64,000 nt of DNA from contig UQAB01000008.1 of assembly GCA_900538765.1 (NCBI GenBank), forward strand, positions 481 through 64,480. Direction: 5' to 3'. A program made the translations under genes and the position numbers. Shown here piece by piece: positions 9,577 to 39,860 of the stretch (position 1 is the first letter of the stretch; each line of letters opens with the position of its first letter). This DNA is from an uncultured Azospirillum sp. GTDB taxonomy: Bacteria > Pseudomonadota > Alphaproteobacteria > RF32 > CAG-239. The notes under the pieces were generated by a model. It was not told the DNA's origin. It made no database searches and worked only from the letters and a program-made list of their open reading frames with translations.

Positions 9577-9610
9577 AAAAACGGAGAGTTTTTGCTCTCC
9601 GTTTTCTTTT
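9574..9610. terminator. Bidirectional intrinsic terminator
   Basis: An 8-bp stem ACGGAGAG/CTCTCCGT lies between an A-run and TTTCTTTT, between convergent genes. Confidence 0.8.
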
Positions 9611-10047
9611 TACTTTGTTTGTATTTTTTCGAGCCTGCCGCTGGCCGTCACTTCATACCCCTGTTCCCGCAGGGCTTCTTTGCCGCCCTCGTCAAAGGTG
9701 TAGTAATAAATCAGCTCGCGCTCGTTGATTCTGCCTGCGTCAACTGCTGCCTGCGGAATGCCCCAGACAACGGAAATCGGCCAGGTCAGAAGGTTGAGAA
9801 AACCATATAACATCTGCCCGTTGTCCGCGCCATTGCCTGACGCCAGATAAAAGTTTCCACCGCCCGGCAGCAGGTTCAAAAGGCCGGCGCCGGCTGCGCT
9901 GGCAGGTTTTTCCCAGTTTCCGGCGGGTTTTTCCGTGGTAATGCCCTGCGCGCGCAGGCTGCGCAATGTGTTGTTTTCCTGATGCGTTAAGGAAACACAG
10001 CCGGAGAGGAGAAGCCCCAGCATTGTGTATGCAATTAAGTTTTTCAT
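9610..10047 (-). CDS. Hypothetical lipoprotein
   Basis: The lipobox LLLSGC follows MKNLIAYTMLG. I prefer the internal ATG at 10047 over 10071 because 10071 lies only 10 nt from the upstream terminator hairpin. The gene lies directly downstream of structured RNA copy 1. Confidence 0.55.
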   Translation of the reverse strand: MKNLIAYTMLGLLLSGCVSLTHQENNTLRSLRAQGITTEKPAGNWEKPASAAGAGLLNLLPGGGNFYLASGNGADNGQMLYGFLNLLTWPISVVWGIPQAAVDAGRINERELIYYYTFDEGGKEALREQGYEVTASGRLEKIQTK

Positions 10048-10080
10048 ATCTTCAAACATCCTGTTTTTCATTCTGTTAAC

Positions 10081-10290
10081 AAAACAAAACCCGCGCTAAT
10101 AAAGGCGGGCGGATGTTCGAAAACCGAGTATCGTTTCGGCTCAGCGCTTTCGTGCTATGCCTTATTACGCCGACATCCGTCCGATGACAGAGGTCGGCAT
10201 ATTTAATTTAAGTCGCTATGCGAAACGACTACGATACGAGGGTTTTCGAAGCCCTGAGCATTGTTCTTTTCTACGGAACAACGCCTGAAC
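10081..10290 (-). ncRNA. Candidate structured leader RNA or sRNA, copy 1 (unassigned family)
   Basis: It is the reverse-complement homolog of 38660..38881, with conserved blocks, compensatory stem changes and its own terminator (CCCGC/GCGGG stem at 10090-10109 plus a T-run). Details are in the findings. Confidence 0.55.
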
Positions 10291-10396
10291 TTAAGTTAAC
10301 GGATTTTGAGTAATAAATCAAGTTAAAAACATTGTGTCGCACCTCACTGAACTTGATTAAGAAAACAAAGGGTTTAGGCTTTCCGTTTATTTAATG

Positions 10397-10822
10397 TTAT
10401 CTCCTGCTTTGCGCCGCGGCTTTTGAGGCAACCCGTAAGGCGAAATCAATGTCAATTTTTCCGTTTTTATCCAAAAATTGATTGGTTTGTAATTTGTTTA
10501 AGTCGTTAGGAATCTGTTTTTCTTTTGAAGATTTTTTATCTTGCTCAGATTGCGGCTGGGTGTTTTTTTCACTTTCTTTGCGTTCTGCTTCATATAAATT
10601 GAAAAAGGCTTTTTTAGCTTCCGGTAAAATATTTTTTGTATCTTTGACTTTGTCTTTCAGCCATTTTTCAAATTCATCAGGGAATTCATTATTATTTTCA
10701 GGTAAAGTCCCGTTTTCCTTTTCTTTAAGATATAGCTGCATAAATGCGATTTTAGCTTCAGGTAAAATATGTTTGGCGTCTGTCACTTTTGTTTCGAGCC
10801 ATTCATTAAAACTTATAGTCAT
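10397..10822 (-). CDS. Hypothetical protein with an internal duplication
   Basis: Two copies of a WL..KV.D.K.ILPEAK.AF..LY module are followed by a Lys/Ser/Gln-rich tail. The gene is visibly AT-rich. Confidence 0.5.
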   Translation of the reverse strand: MTISFNEWLETKVTDAKHILPEAKIAFMQLYLKEKENGTLPENNNEFPDEFEKWLKDKVKDTKNILPEAKKAFFNLYEAERKESEKNTQPQSEQDKKSSKEKQIPNDLNKLQTNQFLDKNGKIDIDFALRVASKAAAQSRR

Positions 10823-36600: not shown

Positions 36601-38580
36601 ATGGTTGAAAAAGATATAATAAGCAGAGATATGGCCAATGCAATTCGCTTTTTGTCGGTGGATGCCATTGAAAAATCAAAATCTGGGCATCCCGGAATGC
36701 CCTTGGGAATGGCGGATGTGGCAACAGTTCTCTTTACTAAAATCATAAAATATAATCCTCAGGACGGCCGCTGGTTTGATCGGGATCGTTTTGTTCTGTC
36801 TGCCGGACATGGTTCCATGCTGCTCTATTCTCTTTTATATTTGTTGGGTAGTCCGGATATCAGCATCGATGATATCAAAAATTTTCGACAGCTTGGCTCC
36901 AAGACTGCCGGGCATCCGGAATACGGACACCTGACGGGAATTGACATGACGACCGGGCCTTTAGGGCAGGGGATTAGTTCCGCAGTTGGTATGGCTTTGG
37001 CAGAAAGGCGGCTGAATGCCAAATTCGGAAATGACTTATGTTGCCATTATACTTATGTTATGTGCGGTGACGGCTGCCTGATGGAAGGCATTTCCGAGGA
37101 AGCGATAGCGCTGGCGGGACATCTGCGCCTGAATAAACTGATTGTTCTCTGGGATAATAACAACATAACGATTGACGGCGAGGTTTCTGCGTCAAGCTCA
37201 ACCGACCAGATAAAACGCTTTGAGGCCTGTGGCTGGGAAACACAGGAAATTGACGGGCATAATCCCGCGGAAATTGAACAGGCGCTCCGTAAGGCGCAAA
37301 AGGCTGACCGTCCGACCCTGATTGCCTGCAAAACTAAAATCGGTTTTGGCGCGCCGTCCAAATGCGGTACATCCAAATGTCATGGTTCCCCGCTCGGTGC
37401 CGAAGAAGTAGCGGCCATGCGCAAAAATCTGAACTGGAATGCCGAAGCGTTTGAAATTCCGGAGGATGTTCTTGATATGTGGCGTCAGGCCGGAAAGCGC
37501 AGTGAAAAAGAATATTATGATTGGAAAAACAGAGCCAAAGCTGCCGGCCGCGAATTTAACGACACAATCCAAAATAAATTGCCTGAGGGTTGGGACAAGG
37601 AACTCTTGGCTTTGAAAGAACAGTGCATTAAGGAGAAGACCAAAGTCGCCACGCGTAAAGCCTCGGAGATGTGCCTTGAAAAAATCGTGCCGAATGTTCC
37701 TGAAATTATCGGTGGTTCGGCAGATTTGGCCGCTTCTAACCTGACCTTTGTCAAAGGGATGAAAACTATTACCCGGGACGATTATGATGGTAATAATATC
37801 ATGTACGGAATTCGTGAACATGCTATGGCTGCAATAATGAATGGTATGGCTTTGCATGGCGGTGTTATTCCCTACGGCGGCACATTCTTTGTCTTTTCTG
37901 ATTATATGCGTCCGTCAATGCGTCTGGCTGCGCTAATGGGGCTTCATGTCGTCTATGTTCTGACGCACGATTCGATTGGCGTGGGAGAAGACGGCCCGAC
38001 TCATCAGCCCGTGGAGCATTTGGCTTCATTCCGAGCCATGCCGAATATCCTGACCATTCGTCCCTGCGATGTGGCTGAAACGGCGGAAGCCTGGCAGATT
38101 GCCATGGAAACGCGGGATAAACCGAGTATTCTGGTGCTGAGCCGTCAGGGCTTGCCCATGCTGAGAACAGAAAACAGCCTTGAAAACAAAACGGCTTTCG
38201 GAGCCTATGTTGTTGACGGAAACGAAAGAAAAGAACGTCAGGCAACGATTCTCGCCACCGGTTCCGAGGTTTCTTTAGCTATGGAAGCACAGAAGATTCT
38301 GTCAGAAAAAGGAATAAATGCGGTGGTTGTTTCCATGCCGTGTTGGGAGCTGTTTGACCGGCAGGAAGATAATTACAAAAAAGACGTCTTGGGAACGGCG
38401 CCCCGCGTAGCCGTTGAGGCCGCTTCCGGATTCGGCTGGGAAAAATATGTCGGCGAAAACGGGCGAATTATCGCCATGAACGGATTCGGCGCTTCCGGTC
38501 CTGCCGACCGGCTGTATGAGCATTTTGGCATAACGGTTGAAAATATTGTCAAAGCAGTTGAAAACCTGGTGCAAAAATAG
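36601..38580 (+). CDS. tkt: Transketolase
   Basis: A 659-aa protein with GHPG, the ThDP-binding GDGCLMEG and the transketolase signature THDSIGVGEDGPTHQP. Confidence 0.95.
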   Translation: MVEKDIISRDMANAIRFLSVDAIEKSKSGHPGMPLGMADVATVLFTKIIKYNPQDGRWFDRDRFVLSAGHGSMLLYSLLYLLGSPDISIDDIKNFRQLGSKTAGHPEYGHLTGIDMTTGPLGQGISSAVGMALAERRLNAKFGNDLCCHYTYVMCGDGCLMEGISEEAIALAGHLRLNKLIVLWDNNNITIDGEVSASSSTDQIKRFEACGWETQEIDGHNPAEIEQALRKAQKADRPTLIACKTKIGFGAPSKCGTSKCHGSPLGAEEVAAMRKNLNWNAEAFEIPEDVLDMWRQAGKRSEKEYYDWKNRAKAAGREFNDTIQNKLPEGWDKELLALKEQCIKEKTKVATRKASEMCLEKIVPNVPEIIGGSADLAASNLTFVKGMKTITRDDYDGNNIMYGIREHAMAAIMNGMALHGGVIPYGGTFFVFSDYMRPSMRLAALMGLHVVYVLTHDSIGVGEDGPTHQPVEHLASFRAMPNILTIRPCDVAETAEAWQIAMETRDKPSILVLSRQGLPMLRTENSLENKTAFGAYVVDGNERKERQATILATGSEVSLAMEAQKILSEKGINAVVVSMPCWELFDRQEDNYKKDVLGTAPRVAVEAASGFGWEKYVGENGRIIAMNGFGASGPADRLYEHFGITVENIVKAVENLVQK

Positions 38581-38591
38581 AAATGAAAAAT

Positions 38592-38624
38592 TAAGGCCTG
38601 ATTTATATCAGGCCTTACTTATTT
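38592..38624 (+). terminator. Intrinsic terminator after tkt
   Basis: An 11-bp stem TAAGGCCTGAT/ATCAGGCCTTA with a 4-nt loop. Confidence 0.7.
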
Positions 38625-38659
38625 AGTAAAACAAAGCGTTGCATTCGTATAATTGCTAT

Positions 38660-38881
38660 GTTACAATAACACCAAGTGGCAGAGTTTGCCGCTGAGGGCG
38701 TCGAAACCCTTTTGTGTATTAGTCGTCAAGCATAATTACGACTTAAAATAAATATATGCTGATATCTGTCTGCTGTGCTAGGGGCGGGTGTCAGCGTTAT
38801 AAGGCTTTGCACGAAAGCGCTGAGCCGTTTTAATACACTACGGTTTCGAACATCCGTCCTCCTTTAAGGAGGATTTTTTTG
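38660..38881 (+). ncRNA. Candidate structured leader RNA or sRNA, copy 2 (unassigned family)
   Basis: TATAAT lies at 38648-38653. The conserved blocks are GCTGAGGGCGTCGAAACCC and GCACGAAAGCGCTGAGCCG...CGGTTTCGAACATCCG. It ends in the terminator TCCTCC-TTTAA-GGAGGA-T8 (38857-38881), 29 nt before the next start codon. Confidence 0.55.
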
Positions 38882-38909
38882 TTTTAACCTTAAAACAAGG
38901 ATGTTCAAC

Positions 38910-39860
38910 ATGAGTATGAACTTTAAATTTTTACTGATAGGGACAAGTTTGTCCTTAATCCCAACTTTAACAAATGCCCAATGTGTTGCGACAACTGATT
39001 GCGCCACTTTGGGATATACCGAAACCTCCTGTCCTGACAGCAAAGGCCTAAAATGCCCATTCGGCAATACCTTTGCCTGTCCGGCAACAGATAAAAGTGT
39101 CTGCGAAAAATATGGCTTCAAATATACCTGTTCCGGTGAAGGTTATGCCGGAGGCGCAGGGCAATCTTGTAATAAACAATATGAAACTTGTTCTTGTGCT
39201 GTCGGTTATGAATGGAAAAACAATAAATGTGAAAAAGAGCCCGGCGCAACTCTTGGACAGTGTACCGGCTATGCCAAAAACTGTAAAATCGGCGATATCT
39301 TAAACAGCGATGGAACCTGTTCTTCTGATAAAGTCAACGGCAAAGCTCCCATTGGTGTCGTGGTTTATATCAGTCAGGATGGTCGTTGCGGACAGGCAAT
39401 GACAGCAAAACCAATTACCAGTACAATATGGAAACCTGAAGAAGTGCAAGCGCCGATGGATGATACAAATGAAAGTGAAGCATTGCAAGATTATGATAGC
39501 TGCGGCAATACAAACATTATCACAAACAGTGGAACGCCTGAAATGTTTCCTGCCGCGTGGGCTGCTAAAACTTATGCCCCTGTTGCCGCGCCGGAAACAA
39601 AAGGAAAATGGTGCTTACCTGCGGCGGGGGTTTTATCTTCAGTTTACTACAAACGCTCAGTCGTTAACAAATCATTCTCAAAAGCAGGAGGTTTGGCAAT
39701 CGTAAATGCTAAAGAAGATCTTTTATCTTCCACTCGTTTTAGTTATGCCGCTATATGGGTATATTGTTCTCTGGATGAGTTTGCCTGCGCTTATGATAAT
39801 GGTCTTAACCCTATGGTTATGAGAGTTGACGGTGCGGTTCGTCCTGTTATTGAATTTTAG
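38910..39860 (+). CDS. Secreted cysteine-rich protein, possibly with a DUF1566-like C-terminal half
   Basis: The signal peptide is FKFLLIGTSLSLIPTLTNAQC. The N-terminal half has about 20 Cys. The C-terminal half contains KGKWCLPAAGVL, reminiscent of the W.LP motif of DUF1566/Lcl-C domains. I chose the ATG at 38910 for its RBS spacing. Confidence 0.5.
   Translation: MSMNFKFLLIGTSLSLIPTLTNAQCVATTDCATLGYTETSCPDSKGLKCPFGNTFACPATDKSVCEKYGFKYTCSGEGYAGGAGQSCNKQYETCSCAVGYEWKNNKCEKEPGATLGQCTGYAKNCKIGDILNSDGTCSSDKVNGKAPIGVVVYISQDGRCGQAMTAKPITSTIWKPEEVQAPMDDTNESEALQDYDSCGNTNIITNSGTPEMFPAAWAAKTYAPVAAPETKGKWCLPAAGVLSSVYYKRSVVNKSFSKAGGLAIVNAKEDLLSSTRFSYAAIWVYCSLDEFACAYDNGLNPMVMRVDGAVRPVIEF

What the first reader, a model, noticed from the sequence alone, without database searches (positions are those of the whole stretch)
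38660..38881. Unassigned structured RNA with terminator/antiterminator logic upstream of a secreted Cys-rich protein (copy 2)
A roughly 220-nt element lies between the tkt terminator and the next gene. It ends in a strong intrinsic terminator (TCCTCC-TTTAA-GGAGGA-T8) only 29 nt before the start codon at 38910.

It has a diverged homolog at 10081-10290 on the other strand. By eye the two are roughly two thirds identical, with long conserved blocks: GCTSAGGGC-TCGAAA(A)CCC, and GCACGAAAGCGCTGAGCCG followed by a hairpin and CGGTTT(T)CGAACATCCG.

Structure is supported by coordinated changes between the copies:
- The long-range helix reads TCGAAACC/GGTTTCGA here and TCGAAAACC/GGTTTTCGA in copy 1, with one A and one T gained together.
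- The central hairpin reads GCTGA...TCAGC here and GCCGA...TCGGC in copy 1 (a C-G to U-A swap).
- The 3' hairpin reads CCGT...ACGG here and CCGA...TCGG in copy 1 (an A-U flip).
- The terminator stems are unrelated in sequence but sit in the same place.

GGGCGGGTGT (38782-38791) can also pair with ACATCCGTCC (38851-38860), which overlaps the 5' arm of the terminator. That gives a candidate antiterminator alternative.

I could not match the element to any riboswitch class I know (TPP, cobalamin, c-di-GMP, guanidine, M-box, ZTP and others).
Basis: partly seen in the sequence, partly recalled or inferred. Interest (0 to 1): 0.7.

Follow-up and report, generated by a model that had tools for sequence, protein, structure and literature searches.

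The report
Two-state leader RNA controlling surface proteins
This is a real, previously undescribed ~210-nt structured leader RNA, found in up to ~30 copies per genome in uncultured gut and rumen Alphaproteobacteria, that can adopt two mutually exclusive folds and appears to switch adhesin-like surface-protein genes on and off at both transcription and translation.

Summary
Window 38676-38881 (+) and 10078-10285 (-) are two copies of a structured RNA family. No Rfam family reaches threshold. I collected about 140 copies from gut and rumen alphaproteobacterial MAGs.

Two mutually exclusive folds are both conserved. Fold A has long-range helices P1 and P2 closing a four-way junction (P3-P5) and leaves the terminator free. 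It has overwhelming covariation, including in 45 sequences from genomes not used to build the model. Fold B is a three-way junction. Its outer stem CGGAUG/CAUCCG takes 3-4 nt of the terminator's 5' arm. It has modest covariation with many independent events.

CAUCC can also pair with the ribosome-binding site GGAUG, and that helix co-varies too.

Fold A is the energy minimum in every copy and at every transcript length, so the default is OFF. Without the 5' half, the antiterminator wins in 74 of 95 copies.

Downstream genes all concern the cell surface: Lcl-like lectins, BspA-type LRR proteins, Opa-like outer-membrane proteins, a lipoprotein and a glycosyltransferase.

The trigger is unknown. 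The nearest known family, sRNA-Xcc1, is only a sub-threshold resemblance.

The parts
38639..38667 (+). Copy 2 promoter-like box: -35 TTGCAT (38639-38644), 17-nt spacer, TG-extended -10 TGtTACAAT (38659-38667)
   Evidence: Read from the sequence. The motif TTGnnn-N17-TAnnnT is found in 56 of 74 copies, always with a 17-nt spacer, and 48 of these have the extended TG. The generic sigma-70 scan did not flag it because its -35 threshold is stricter.
38676..38692 (+). Copy 2 P0: 5'-terminal hairpin GUGGCA-GAGUU-UGCCGC
   Evidence: Present in the MFE fold. RNAalifold finds 6 pairs, and in 1-5 sequences per pair both sides have changed.
38694..38859 (+). Copy 2 core (core positions 1-166). Fold A: P1 38696-38708/38842-38855; P2 38714-38721/38831-38838; P3 38722-38742; P4 38758-38795; P5 38803-38826. 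Fold B: outer (antiterminator) stem 38782-38790/38851-38859; hairpin A 38792-38822; hairpin B 38824-38844
   Evidence: Covariance model R1 scores 184 bits. Pair counts for fold A. Pair counts for fold B.
38856..38881 (+). Copy 2 intrinsic terminator (GUCCUCC-UUUAA-GGAGGAU followed by a U run). Its first 4 nt are shared with the fold-B outer stem.
   Evidence: Terminator scan. A terminator hairpin plus U run follows the core in 76 of 76 and in 42 of 44 copies.
38897..38912 (+). Copy 2 ribosome-binding region AAGGAUGUUCAAC plus the start codon at 38910. GGAUGUUC (38899-38906) is complementary to GAACAUCC (38848-38855).
   Evidence: Read from the sequence. RNAalifold predicts the helix. Own-versus-swapped duplex tests support it.
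38910..39860 (+). Regulated gene of copy 2: secreted Cys-rich protein with an Lcl-like (C-type-lectin-like) C-terminal domain
   Evidence: ORF list. 1441 homologs, none with a Pfam domain or a name. AlphaFold2 model with pLDDT 83.5. Foldseek matches 8q4e_A, the Lcl C-terminal domain, at E=9e-6.
10293..10321 (-). Copy 1 promoter-like box: -35 TTGATT (10321-10316), 17-nt spacer, -10 TAACTT (10298-10293)
   Evidence: Read from the sequence. Family-wide motif statistics.
10257..10285 (-). Copy 1 P0 hairpin
   Evidence: MFE fold.
10107..10256 (-). Copy 1 core, with the same folds A and B as copy 2
   Evidence: R1 scores 130.6 bits. R2 scores 84.5 bits. MFE fold. Orthologs are L039 and L124.
10078..10110 (-). 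Copy 1 terminator (CCCGCC...GCGCGGG followed by a U run)
   Evidence: MFE fold and the sequence.
10045..10061 (-). Copy 1 ribosome-binding region GGAUGUUUGAAGAU plus the start codon (10047-10045). It pairs with UCGGUUUUCGAACAUCC in the MFE of the full leader.
   Evidence: Full-leader fold. Duplex energy for this class is -17.9 kcal/mol with its own partner versus -12.6 with swapped partners.
9610..10047 (-). Regulated gene of copy 1: small lipoprotein (lipobox LLLSGC), family unknown
   Evidence: ORF list. No significant Pfam or NCBIfam family.

Best explanation
The element is a cis-acting leader RNA that works as a three-tier attenuator on its own mRNA.

Transcription starts at a conserved promoter about 20 nt upstream of the core.

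In fold A, the 5' strands pair with the 3' half: P1 and P2 close a four-way junction with P3, P4 and P5. This uses up both strands of the antiterminator, so the terminator hairpin forms and transcription stops about 30 nt before the start codon. In any read-through RNA, the segment (G)AACAUCC is also free to pair with the ribosome-binding site GGAUGUU, which blocks translation.

In fold B, the 3' half refolds into a three-way junction. CGGAUG copies the ribosome-binding sequence and captures CAUCCG. That removes 3-4 nt from the terminator stem and at the same time frees the real ribosome-binding site, so transcription reads through and translation is allowed.

Fold A is both the thermodynamic and the sequential-folding default. 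I therefore infer that the genes are OFF unless an unidentified factor stabilises fold B or blocks the 5' strands. That factor could be a small ligand, a protein or another RNA. This would make the element an ON switch for a regulon of surface and adhesin-like proteins.

Shown: both folds, the terminator, the pairing with the ribosome-binding site, the energetics and the gene set.
Inferred: the direction of switching and the existence of a trigger.
For: Fold A:
- Structure-blind MAFFT alignment of 33 copies: 94.5% of cells paired, 158 compensatory cells versus 50.7 +/- 6.2 in shuffles (0/500), and 31-44% paired when partners are slid.
- 78 distinct copies: 336 compensatory cells versus 107 +/- 10.
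- 45 sequences from genomes not used to build the model: 94.0% paired, 243 versus 65 +/- 6.4, P2 99.3% paired, all P2 and P3 pairs covarying.

Fold B:
- 97.3%, 94.2%, 94.4% and 92.9% paired in four alignments. Compensatory cells 17 versus 7.6, 37 versus 18.8, 57 versus 21.3 and 6 versus 0.7, each 0/500 shuffles.
- Hairpin A pair 100-128: GC50/AU29/GU16, none broken.
- Hairpin B pair 134-148: GC73/AU21, with at least 14 changes on a tree.
- L106 and L152 carry U102-A126, which keeps hairpin A but breaks a P5 pair.
- A structure-free scan ranks the hairpin B pair directly after the P1 and P2 pairs.

Exclusivity: hairpin B would have to cross P2 with a 1-nt linker spanning 8 bp (inference from geometry).

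Terminator: present in 76/76 and 42/44 copies.

Ribosome-binding-site helix: predicted by RNAalifold. A copy's own duplex is more stable than swapped ones in 46/49 copies and 11/12 classes, and in 28/37 copies and 10/13 classes of the independent set. It forms in the MFE of the full copy-1 leader.

Energetics:
- Fold A is the MFE in 10/10 copies, by about 13-29 kcal/mol.
- Fold A is the MFE at every transcript length from 100 to 196 nt.
- The antiterminator is in the MFE of 0/95 full leaders, but of 74/95 when the 5' half is removed.

Gene set: the element always lies on the same strand, about 35-55 nt upstream of the gene. The genes are unrelated to one another but all concern the cell surface.

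Natural variants: some paralogs have lost the 3' half and terminator and gained a promoter of their own.
Against: - There are no transcript data. The start site, termination and read-through are all inferred from sequence.
- The trigger is unknown, and no binding pocket can be singled out, because the family is narrow and most unpaired positions are conserved.
- Fold B rests on few variable pairs. Only the inner 6 bp of its outer stem are consistently paired, and they are invariant, so they say nothing for or against pairing.
- In copy 2 the helix with the ribosome-binding site is only 8 bp and is not in the MFE of the full leader.
- MFE calculations ignore kinetics, proteins and tertiary structure.
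- The 'default OFF' conclusion could be wrong if the long-range helices P1 and P2 form slowly in vivo.
Confidence: 0.62

Rival explanations
1. It is a classical OFF riboswitch. A small ligand binds the four-way junction of fold A and stabilises P1/P2. Without the ligand the RNA falls into fold B and transcription reads through.
For: The architecture resembles riboswitch aptamers whose closing helix shares a strand with an antiterminator: P1 closes a four-way junction and many junction nucleotides are conserved. Both alternative folds are conserved.
Against: Fold A needs no help. It is the MFE by about 13-29 kcal/mol, it is favoured at every transcript length, and P1 plus P2 give about 20 bp. 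The gene set gives no metabolic clue. No known riboswitch model matches, even at E<=10.
Confidence: 0.15
2. The roughly 205-nt terminated transcript is itself the product: a family of trans-acting small RNAs. Its CAUCC anti-SD motif would repress the GGAUG ribosome-binding sites of the whole paralogous gene set, and the position next to a gene would be secondary.
For: The element has its own promoter and a strong terminator. The motif AACAUCC is complementary to the ribosome-binding site shared by all target genes. The nearest Rfam family, sRNA-Xcc1, was described as a small RNA (PMC2996969).
Against: There is no room for a separate promoter in the ~30 nt between terminator and start codon, so the gene must be transcribed through the element. 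The part of the ribosome-binding region beyond GGAUGUU co-varies with the P1 3' strand of its own copy, which argues for action in cis. A pure trans-acting RNA does not explain the conserved antiterminator. The two roles are not mutually exclusive.
Confidence: 0.1
3. It is a constitutive structural leader that serves mRNA stability, processing or localisation of mRNAs for exported proteins. Fold B's signal would then be incidental.
For: Fold A dominates the energetics. Fold B's covariation rests on three or four pairs.
Against: A strong terminator directly before the coding region in about 118 of 120 copies would make a constitutive leader self-defeating. Hairpin B covaries through at least 14 independent changes and is essentially never broken. 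When the 5' half is absent, the antiterminator is the preferred fold in 74/95 copies.
Confidence: 0.08
4. It is a leader-peptide (ribosome-mediated) attenuator. Translation from the near-invariant AUG at core positions 63-65 would unwind the 5' arm of P4 and release fold B.
For: ATG is present in 73 of 77 copies at the start of the P4 5' arm, and the region upstream is AU-rich and unpaired.
Against: There is no correctly spaced Shine-Dalgarno sequence. The ORF length ranges from 5 to more than 60 codons with no conserved frame or stop. Four copies have TTG, CTG or ATA instead. The three bases are in any case explained by pairing at the base of P4.
Confidence: 0.03
5. It is a non-functional repeat: a 5' UTR carried along by gene duplication, or a mobile element.
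For: Most copies in one genome precede paralogs of one gene family. A MITE-like element does live inside some copies.
Against: Hundreds of compensatory changes keep the helices intact. The element precedes at least six unrelated gene families. It has a fixed orientation and distance to the start codon and no terminal repeats of its own.
Confidence: 0.01

Closest known systems
sRNA-Xcc1 (Rfam RF02221)
   Same: The 3' half (fold B) aligns to the full 87-position model in every copy tested. Shared features are a G-rich outer stem enclosing two hairpins, an AUA..A internal loop and a GAAA loop in the first hairpin, a nearly identical second stem (GCCGU/ACGGU), a U-rich junction, and a C-rich 3' strand followed by U's. 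Genuine members also lie just upstream of a gene: KilA-N in Kingella potus, symE in Xanthomonas integron cassettes and an ORF6N gene in APSE phages.
   Different: Scores are 26-33 bits against a gathering score of 53. A model built from this family's fold-B domain does not detect the genuine Kingella member at E<=10 with filters off. The fold-A model does not detect it either. sRNA-Xcc1 is about 88 nt and lacks the 5' domain (P1, P2, P3 and the 5' arm of P4). Its hosts and neighbouring genes are different: mobile-element genes in beta- and gammaproteobacteria.
Riboswitches with a junction aptamer closed by P1 and a terminator/antiterminator platform (for example SAM-I; from established knowledge)
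   Same: A long-range P1 closes a multi-helix junction. The 3' strand of P1 and part of the aptamer are re-used in an antiterminator that overlaps an intrinsic terminator. A ribosome-binding site can also be masked, giving dual-level control.
   Different: No sequence or structure match to any Rfam riboswitch. No ligand is known. The closed fold is so stable on its own that it needs no ligand. The regulated genes are surface proteins, not metabolic genes or transporters.
Factor-dependent antitermination leaders: T-box, BglG/SacY RAT, and the PyrR anti-antiterminator (from established knowledge)
   Same: The terminator is the default, and a less stable antiterminator needs outside stabilisation. 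There is a three-tier arrangement of anti-antiterminator, antiterminator and terminator.
   Different: No T-box or other such family is detected by Rfam. No specifier or T-box sequence, no RAT-like motif and no ANTAR-like double hexaloop was seen by eye. The factor is unknown.
c-di-GMP-I (GEMM) riboswitches (from established knowledge)
   Same: Many copies per genome, typically in front of genes for secreted or surface proteins and adhesins of unknown function.
   Different: No covariance-model match, even at E<=10. The architecture is different. Any link to a second messenger is pure speculation.

Membership tests
sRNA-Xcc1 (RF02221) | Score at or above the Rfam gathering threshold (53 bits) | tested here: not met
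   25.9 and 30.4 bits for the window copies. 28-33 bits for 11 further copies. A genuine member scores 56.4 bits.
sRNA-Xcc1 (RF02221) | Three-way junction: an outer stem enclosing two hairpins | tested here: met
   Fold B has this architecture and is 93-97% paired across the alignments.
sRNA-Xcc1 (RF02221) | Reciprocal detection: a model built from this family finds a genuine member | tested here: not met
   R2 finds nothing at L069 1456-1538 at E<=10 with filters off.
sRNA-Xcc1 (RF02221) | Stand-alone transcript of about 88 nt in a mobile-element context (integron cassette, plasmid or phage) | tested here: not met
   Here the domain is embedded in a ~210-nt leader in front of chromosomal surface-protein genes. 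Transcript ends could not be tested.
Riboswitch (ligand-sensing leader) | Conserved structured domain supported by covariation | tested here: met
Riboswitch (ligand-sensing leader) | Mutually exclusive structures that include a terminator or a ribosome-binding-site-masking helix | tested here: met
Riboswitch (ligand-sensing leader) | Direct and selective binding of a small ligand | not testable with these tools
   Needs in-line probing, ITC or transcription assays.
Known riboswitch and leader classes in Rfam 15 (4227 families) | Covariance-model match | tested here: not met
   Nothing at gathering score. Apart from RF02221, only scattered chance-level hits at E<=10.
Leader-peptide attenuator | Conserved short ORF with a ribosome-binding site and a fixed stop position relative to the alternative helices | tested here: not met
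Factor-dependent antitermination leader (T-box or RAT type) | The terminator is the default and the antiterminator is less stable on its own | tested here: met
Factor-dependent antitermination leader (T-box or RAT type) | An identified binding partner (tRNA or protein) and its recognition motif | not testable with these tools
   No T-box match in Rfam. No antisense partner in the window. Finding a partner needs experiments or genome-wide co-occurrence analysis.

The most novel reading that the evidence does not exclude
This is a new class of sensing leader RNA: a riboswitch, or a T-box-like leader that binds an RNA or protein. Its three-way-junction fold B would be stabilised by a colonisation-related signal, for example a second messenger or a host- or diet-derived molecule. 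That would switch on, at both transcription and translation, the whole repertoire of adhesin-like surface proteins (Lcl-like lectins, BspA-type LRR proteins, Opa-like outer-membrane proteins) of uncultured gut Alphaproteobacteria. Its distant likeness to sRNA-Xcc1 would then suggest that sRNA-Xcc1 is also a cis-acting sensor and not a trans-acting small RNA.
Probability: 0.3. Interest if true: 0.8.

Novelty: new variant of a known kind. Interest (0 to 1): 0.66.

Why it matters
- **Test case for RNA switches.** Both alternative folds, and a third pairing with the ribosome-binding site, carry evolutionary support. For most riboswitch candidates only the sensing fold does. This makes the family a clean system for studying how switching RNAs are built.
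- **What it controls.** It governs about 20-30 genes per genome for adhesin-like surface proteins in a group of human-gut and rumen Alphaproteobacteria that have never been cultured. Finding the trigger would show what these organisms sense when they decide to display their surface repertoire.
- **sRNA-Xcc1.** The result also raises a testable question about sRNA-Xcc1, a widespread mobile-element RNA whose mechanism is not known.

Tried and rejected
- **Rfam scans.** I ran the gathering-threshold scan and permissive scans. The only repeated hit was sub-threshold RF02221.
- **Reciprocal test with sRNA-Xcc1.** The fold-B model R2 against the genuine Kingella member was negative, so I do not file the element under that family.
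- **Hits in Kiritimatiellae, Lentisphaerae and rumen RUG MAGs.** The second genome scan returned these, but they are one near-identical unrelated sequence shared between MAGs, not homologs.
- **Generic sigma-70 scan.** It found no promoter. The family-specific motif TTGnnn-N17-(TG)nTAnnnT was found by alignment instead.
- **Leader peptide from AUG 63.** Rejected.
- **Antisense partner for the P4 5' arm.** None in the window or in the fetched loci; the exact matches are the elements themselves.
- **Extra pseudoknots or tertiary pairs.** A structure-free covariation scan found nothing beyond co-substitutions specific to one clade.
- **Hairpin B coexisting with fold A as a pseudoknot.** Rejected on geometry: a 1-nt linker would have to span an 8-bp helix.
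- **Literature.** Searches for the conserved sequence blocks, for RNA motifs upstream of DUF1566/Lcl genes and for gut Alphaproteobacteria found no earlier description.
- **Pattern error.** The gap in my third genome pattern was one nucleotide too long for the known copies. By luck this returned mainly new, more divergent genomes.

Full report
**1. The observation**

The region is as described.
- The transketolase gene ends at 38580 (TIGR00232, E=1.9e-254). A two-way terminator hairpin follows at 38592-38617.
- An intrinsic terminator (stem 38856-38874 plus a U run) ends 29 nt before the ATG at 38910.
- The minus-strand copy at about 10078-10285 is homologous, with 77% identical columns. A 19-mer is shared exactly twice against 0.01 expected.
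- Both copies fold much better than shuffled controls (z = -6.3 and -6.7) and into the same architecture.
- A covariance model built later finds exactly these two copies in the window.

**2. Not a known family**

Rfam 15 at gathering thresholds finds only rRNA and tRNA in the window. Permissive scans of both copies and of 18 further loci give one repeated result. The 3' half matches sRNA-Xcc1 (RF02221) over the whole model at 26-33 bits, against a gathering score of 53.

**3. A large family**

I used three pattern scans of the species-representative genome collection, one scan of metagenome contigs, and two protein-guided look-ups. Hits were confirmed with blastn, nhmmer or the covariance model R1. 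This gave about 140 copies.

All are from uncultured Alphaproteobacteria of the human gut, rumen or deer gut. One MAG (JAUNPO01, close to the window's organism) has more than 20 copies. Another (JAFUTN01) has about 30. Hits in other phyla were chance matches or one unrelated sequence shared between MAGs.

**4. Fold A**

RNAalifold and explicit pair counting support these helices:
- P0, a 5' hairpin;
- P1, long-range (core 3-15 with 149-162);
- P2 (21-28 with 138-145);
- P3 (29-33 with 45-49);
- P4 (65-76 with 91-102);
- P5 (110-133).

| Alignment | Cells paired | Compensatory cells | Shuffled |
|---|---|---|---|
| 33 copies, structure-blind MAFFT | 94.5% | 158 | 50.7 +/- 6.2 (0/500) |
| 78 distinct copies | 95.8% | 336 | 107 +/- 10 |
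| 45 copies from genomes not used for the model | 94.0% | 243 | 65 +/- 6.4 |

With the 3' partners slid by 1-3 columns, only 31-44% of cells pair in the first alignment. In the independent set, 21 pairs covary, P2 is 99.3% paired and all P3 pairs covary. P2 has an almost unique sequence in every copy.

**5. Fold B**

Three segments co-vary: GCYGA (5' arm of P4), UCRGC (3' arm of P4) and CGCYGA (after the GNRA loop). The middle segment can therefore pair with either neighbour.

Fold B consists of an outer stem (89-97 with 158-166), hairpin A (99-103 with 125-129) and hairpin B (131-135 with 147-151).

| Alignment | Cells paired | Compensatory cells | Shuffled |
|---|---|---|---|
| A3 | 97.3% | 17 | 7.6 |
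| A4 | 94.2% | 37 | 18.8 |
| A8 | 94.4% | 57 | 21.3 |
| A7 (independent) | 92.9% | 6 | 0.7 |

In each case 0 of 500 shuffles reach the observed number. Alignments A4, A7 and A8 were fitted to fold A, so they do not favour fold B.

The informative pairs are 100-128 (GC50/AU29/GU16, none broken), 102-126 (CG60/UG33/UA2) and 134-148 (GC73/AU21). The last needs at least 14 changes on a tree, compared with 21-27 for P1 and P2 pairs. A scan that assumes no structure ranks it directly after the P1 and P2 pairs.

Only the inner six pairs of the outer stem (CGGAUG/CAUCCG) are consistently paired, and they are invariant.

Hairpin B cannot coexist with P2, because one nucleotide would have to span an 8-bp helix (inference). 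The two folds are therefore alternatives.

**6. Link to the terminator and the ribosome-binding site**

The terminator's 5' arm starts at core position 163 or 164, so the fold-B outer stem takes 3-4 of its 5-8 pairs. Fold A leaves it untouched. A terminator hairpin plus U run follows the core in 76/76 and 42/44 copies.

The segment AACAUCC is also complementary to the conserved ribosome-binding region GGAUGUU. Beyond these seven pairs, the ribosome-binding region co-varies with the P1 3' strand of its own copy. Examples are UCUGAACAUCC with GGAUUGUUCAGA, UUUCUAGCAUCC with GGAUGUUGGAAA, and CGUCC with GGACG. A copy's own duplex is more stable than swapped ones in 46/49 copies and 11/12 classes, and in 28/37 copies and 10/13 classes of the independent set. 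In the full copy-1 leader this helix replaces P1 in the MFE. In copy 2 it does not.

**7. Energetics**

- Fold A is the MFE in 10/10 copies, by about 13-29 kcal/mol.
- It is the MFE at every transcript length from 100 to 196 nt.
- The antiterminator is in the MFE of 0/95 full leaders. It is in the MFE of 74/95 when the 5' half is removed.

The 5' half therefore acts as an anti-antiterminator, and the default state is OFF. Fold B must need outside help (inference).

**8. Accessory signals**

A TTGnnn-N17-TAnnnT box precedes 56 of 74 copies, always with a 17-nt spacer, and 48 of these have an extended -10 TG. There is no room for another promoter between terminator and start codon.

**9. What is regulated**

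The element always lies on the same strand, about 35-55 nt before the start codon. The genes are:
- 60 distinct members of an unnamed Cys-rich secreted family. It has 1441 database homologs and no Pfam domain. Its C-terminal domain matches the Lcl adhesin C-terminal domain (AlphaFold2 pLDDT 83.5, Foldseek E=9e-6). One subgroup gives a Pfam Lcl_C hit at 3.9e-7, below the curated threshold.
- 35 BspA-type leucine-rich-repeat proteins (PF13306, E=2.7e-18).
- Opacity/OMP beta-barrel proteins.
- EGF-like Cys-rich repeat proteins.
- A small lipoprotein (window copy 1).
- A GT2 glycosyltransferase.

All concern the cell surface.

**10. Natural variants**

Some paralogs keep only the promoter, P0, the 5' strands and P3, followed by a new promoter-like box and a strong Shine-Dalgarno sequence. 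Others are interrupted at one fixed site by a 268-nt MITE-like element, and some of those have also lost the terminator.

**11. Relation to sRNA-Xcc1**

A genuine member (56.4 bits) lies about 35 nt upstream of a KilA-N gene on a Kingella potus plasmid. Published contexts are upstream of symE and of an ORF6N gene.

The consensus shares with fold B the junction architecture, an AUA..A internal loop, a GAAA loop and the second hairpin stem. However, the scores are far below threshold and the reciprocal search fails. I treat it as a resemblance, possibly distant kinship, and not as membership.

**12. Verdict**

This is a genuine, undescribed cis-regulatory RNA family with two evolutionarily maintained folds and control at two levels. 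The switching direction (default OFF, with fold B induced) is inferred from energetics. The trigger is unknown.

No earlier description was found in the searchable literature.

Noticed in passing
L032 6119-6390; also L015, L024, L097, L105, L095 and L130 (related loci): A ~268-nt element with perfect ~32-nt terminal inverted repeats (GACCTAAAATATCCCCTTACAG... / ...CTGTAAGGGGATATTTTAGGTC) sits in both orientations at one fixed position of the leader, in the loop of hairpin B / start of the P2 3' strand. It looks like a MITE that targets this RNA.
   Followed up: partly
L070 2790-3000; L032, L105 and L130 downstream of the core: Some family genes have lost P4 through the terminator. In its place they carry a shared AT-rich cassette with a TTGAxT...TGTTATAAT promoter-like box and a strong Shine-Dalgarno sequence. 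This amounts to a natural bypass of the attenuator.
   Followed up: partly
L069 1456-1538 (Kingella potus plasmid NZ_CP091517.1): A genuine sRNA-Xcc1 lies about 35 nt upstream of a KilA-N gene, and its 3' strand overlaps a further hairpin (GCCGC-CCUUUU-GCGGC). With the published symE and ORF6N contexts, this suggests sRNA-Xcc1 may act in cis on the downstream gene.
   Followed up: partly
L043, L044, L047, L051, L055, L057, L064 and L067: A stretch of more than 330 nt is nearly identical in MAGs assigned to Kiritimatiellae, Lentisphaerae, Verrucomicrobia and unclassified rumen bacteria. It is either a shared mobile element or cross-contamination of bins. It is unrelated to the leader RNA.
   Followed up: no
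L174 1-151 (contig assigned to Limosilactobacillus gorillae): A full copy of this alphaproteobacterial leader (99 bits) sits on a contig binned as a Limosilactobacillus genome. Mis-binning is the likely cause.
   Followed up: no
L046 6610-6747: This copy has a clean internal deletion that removes the 3' part of P5, hairpin B and the 3' strand of P2, yet keeps the terminator and ribosome-binding region in front of an intact family gene.
   Followed up: no
window 38592-38617: An 11-bp hairpin flanked by T runs on both strands could serve as a two-way terminator between tkt and the leader's promoter.
   Followed up: no
window 10397-10822 (-): The gene upstream of copy 1 encodes a 141-aa protein with an internal repeat (...KDKVKDTKNILPEAKKAF...) and no significant family match.
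   Followed up: no
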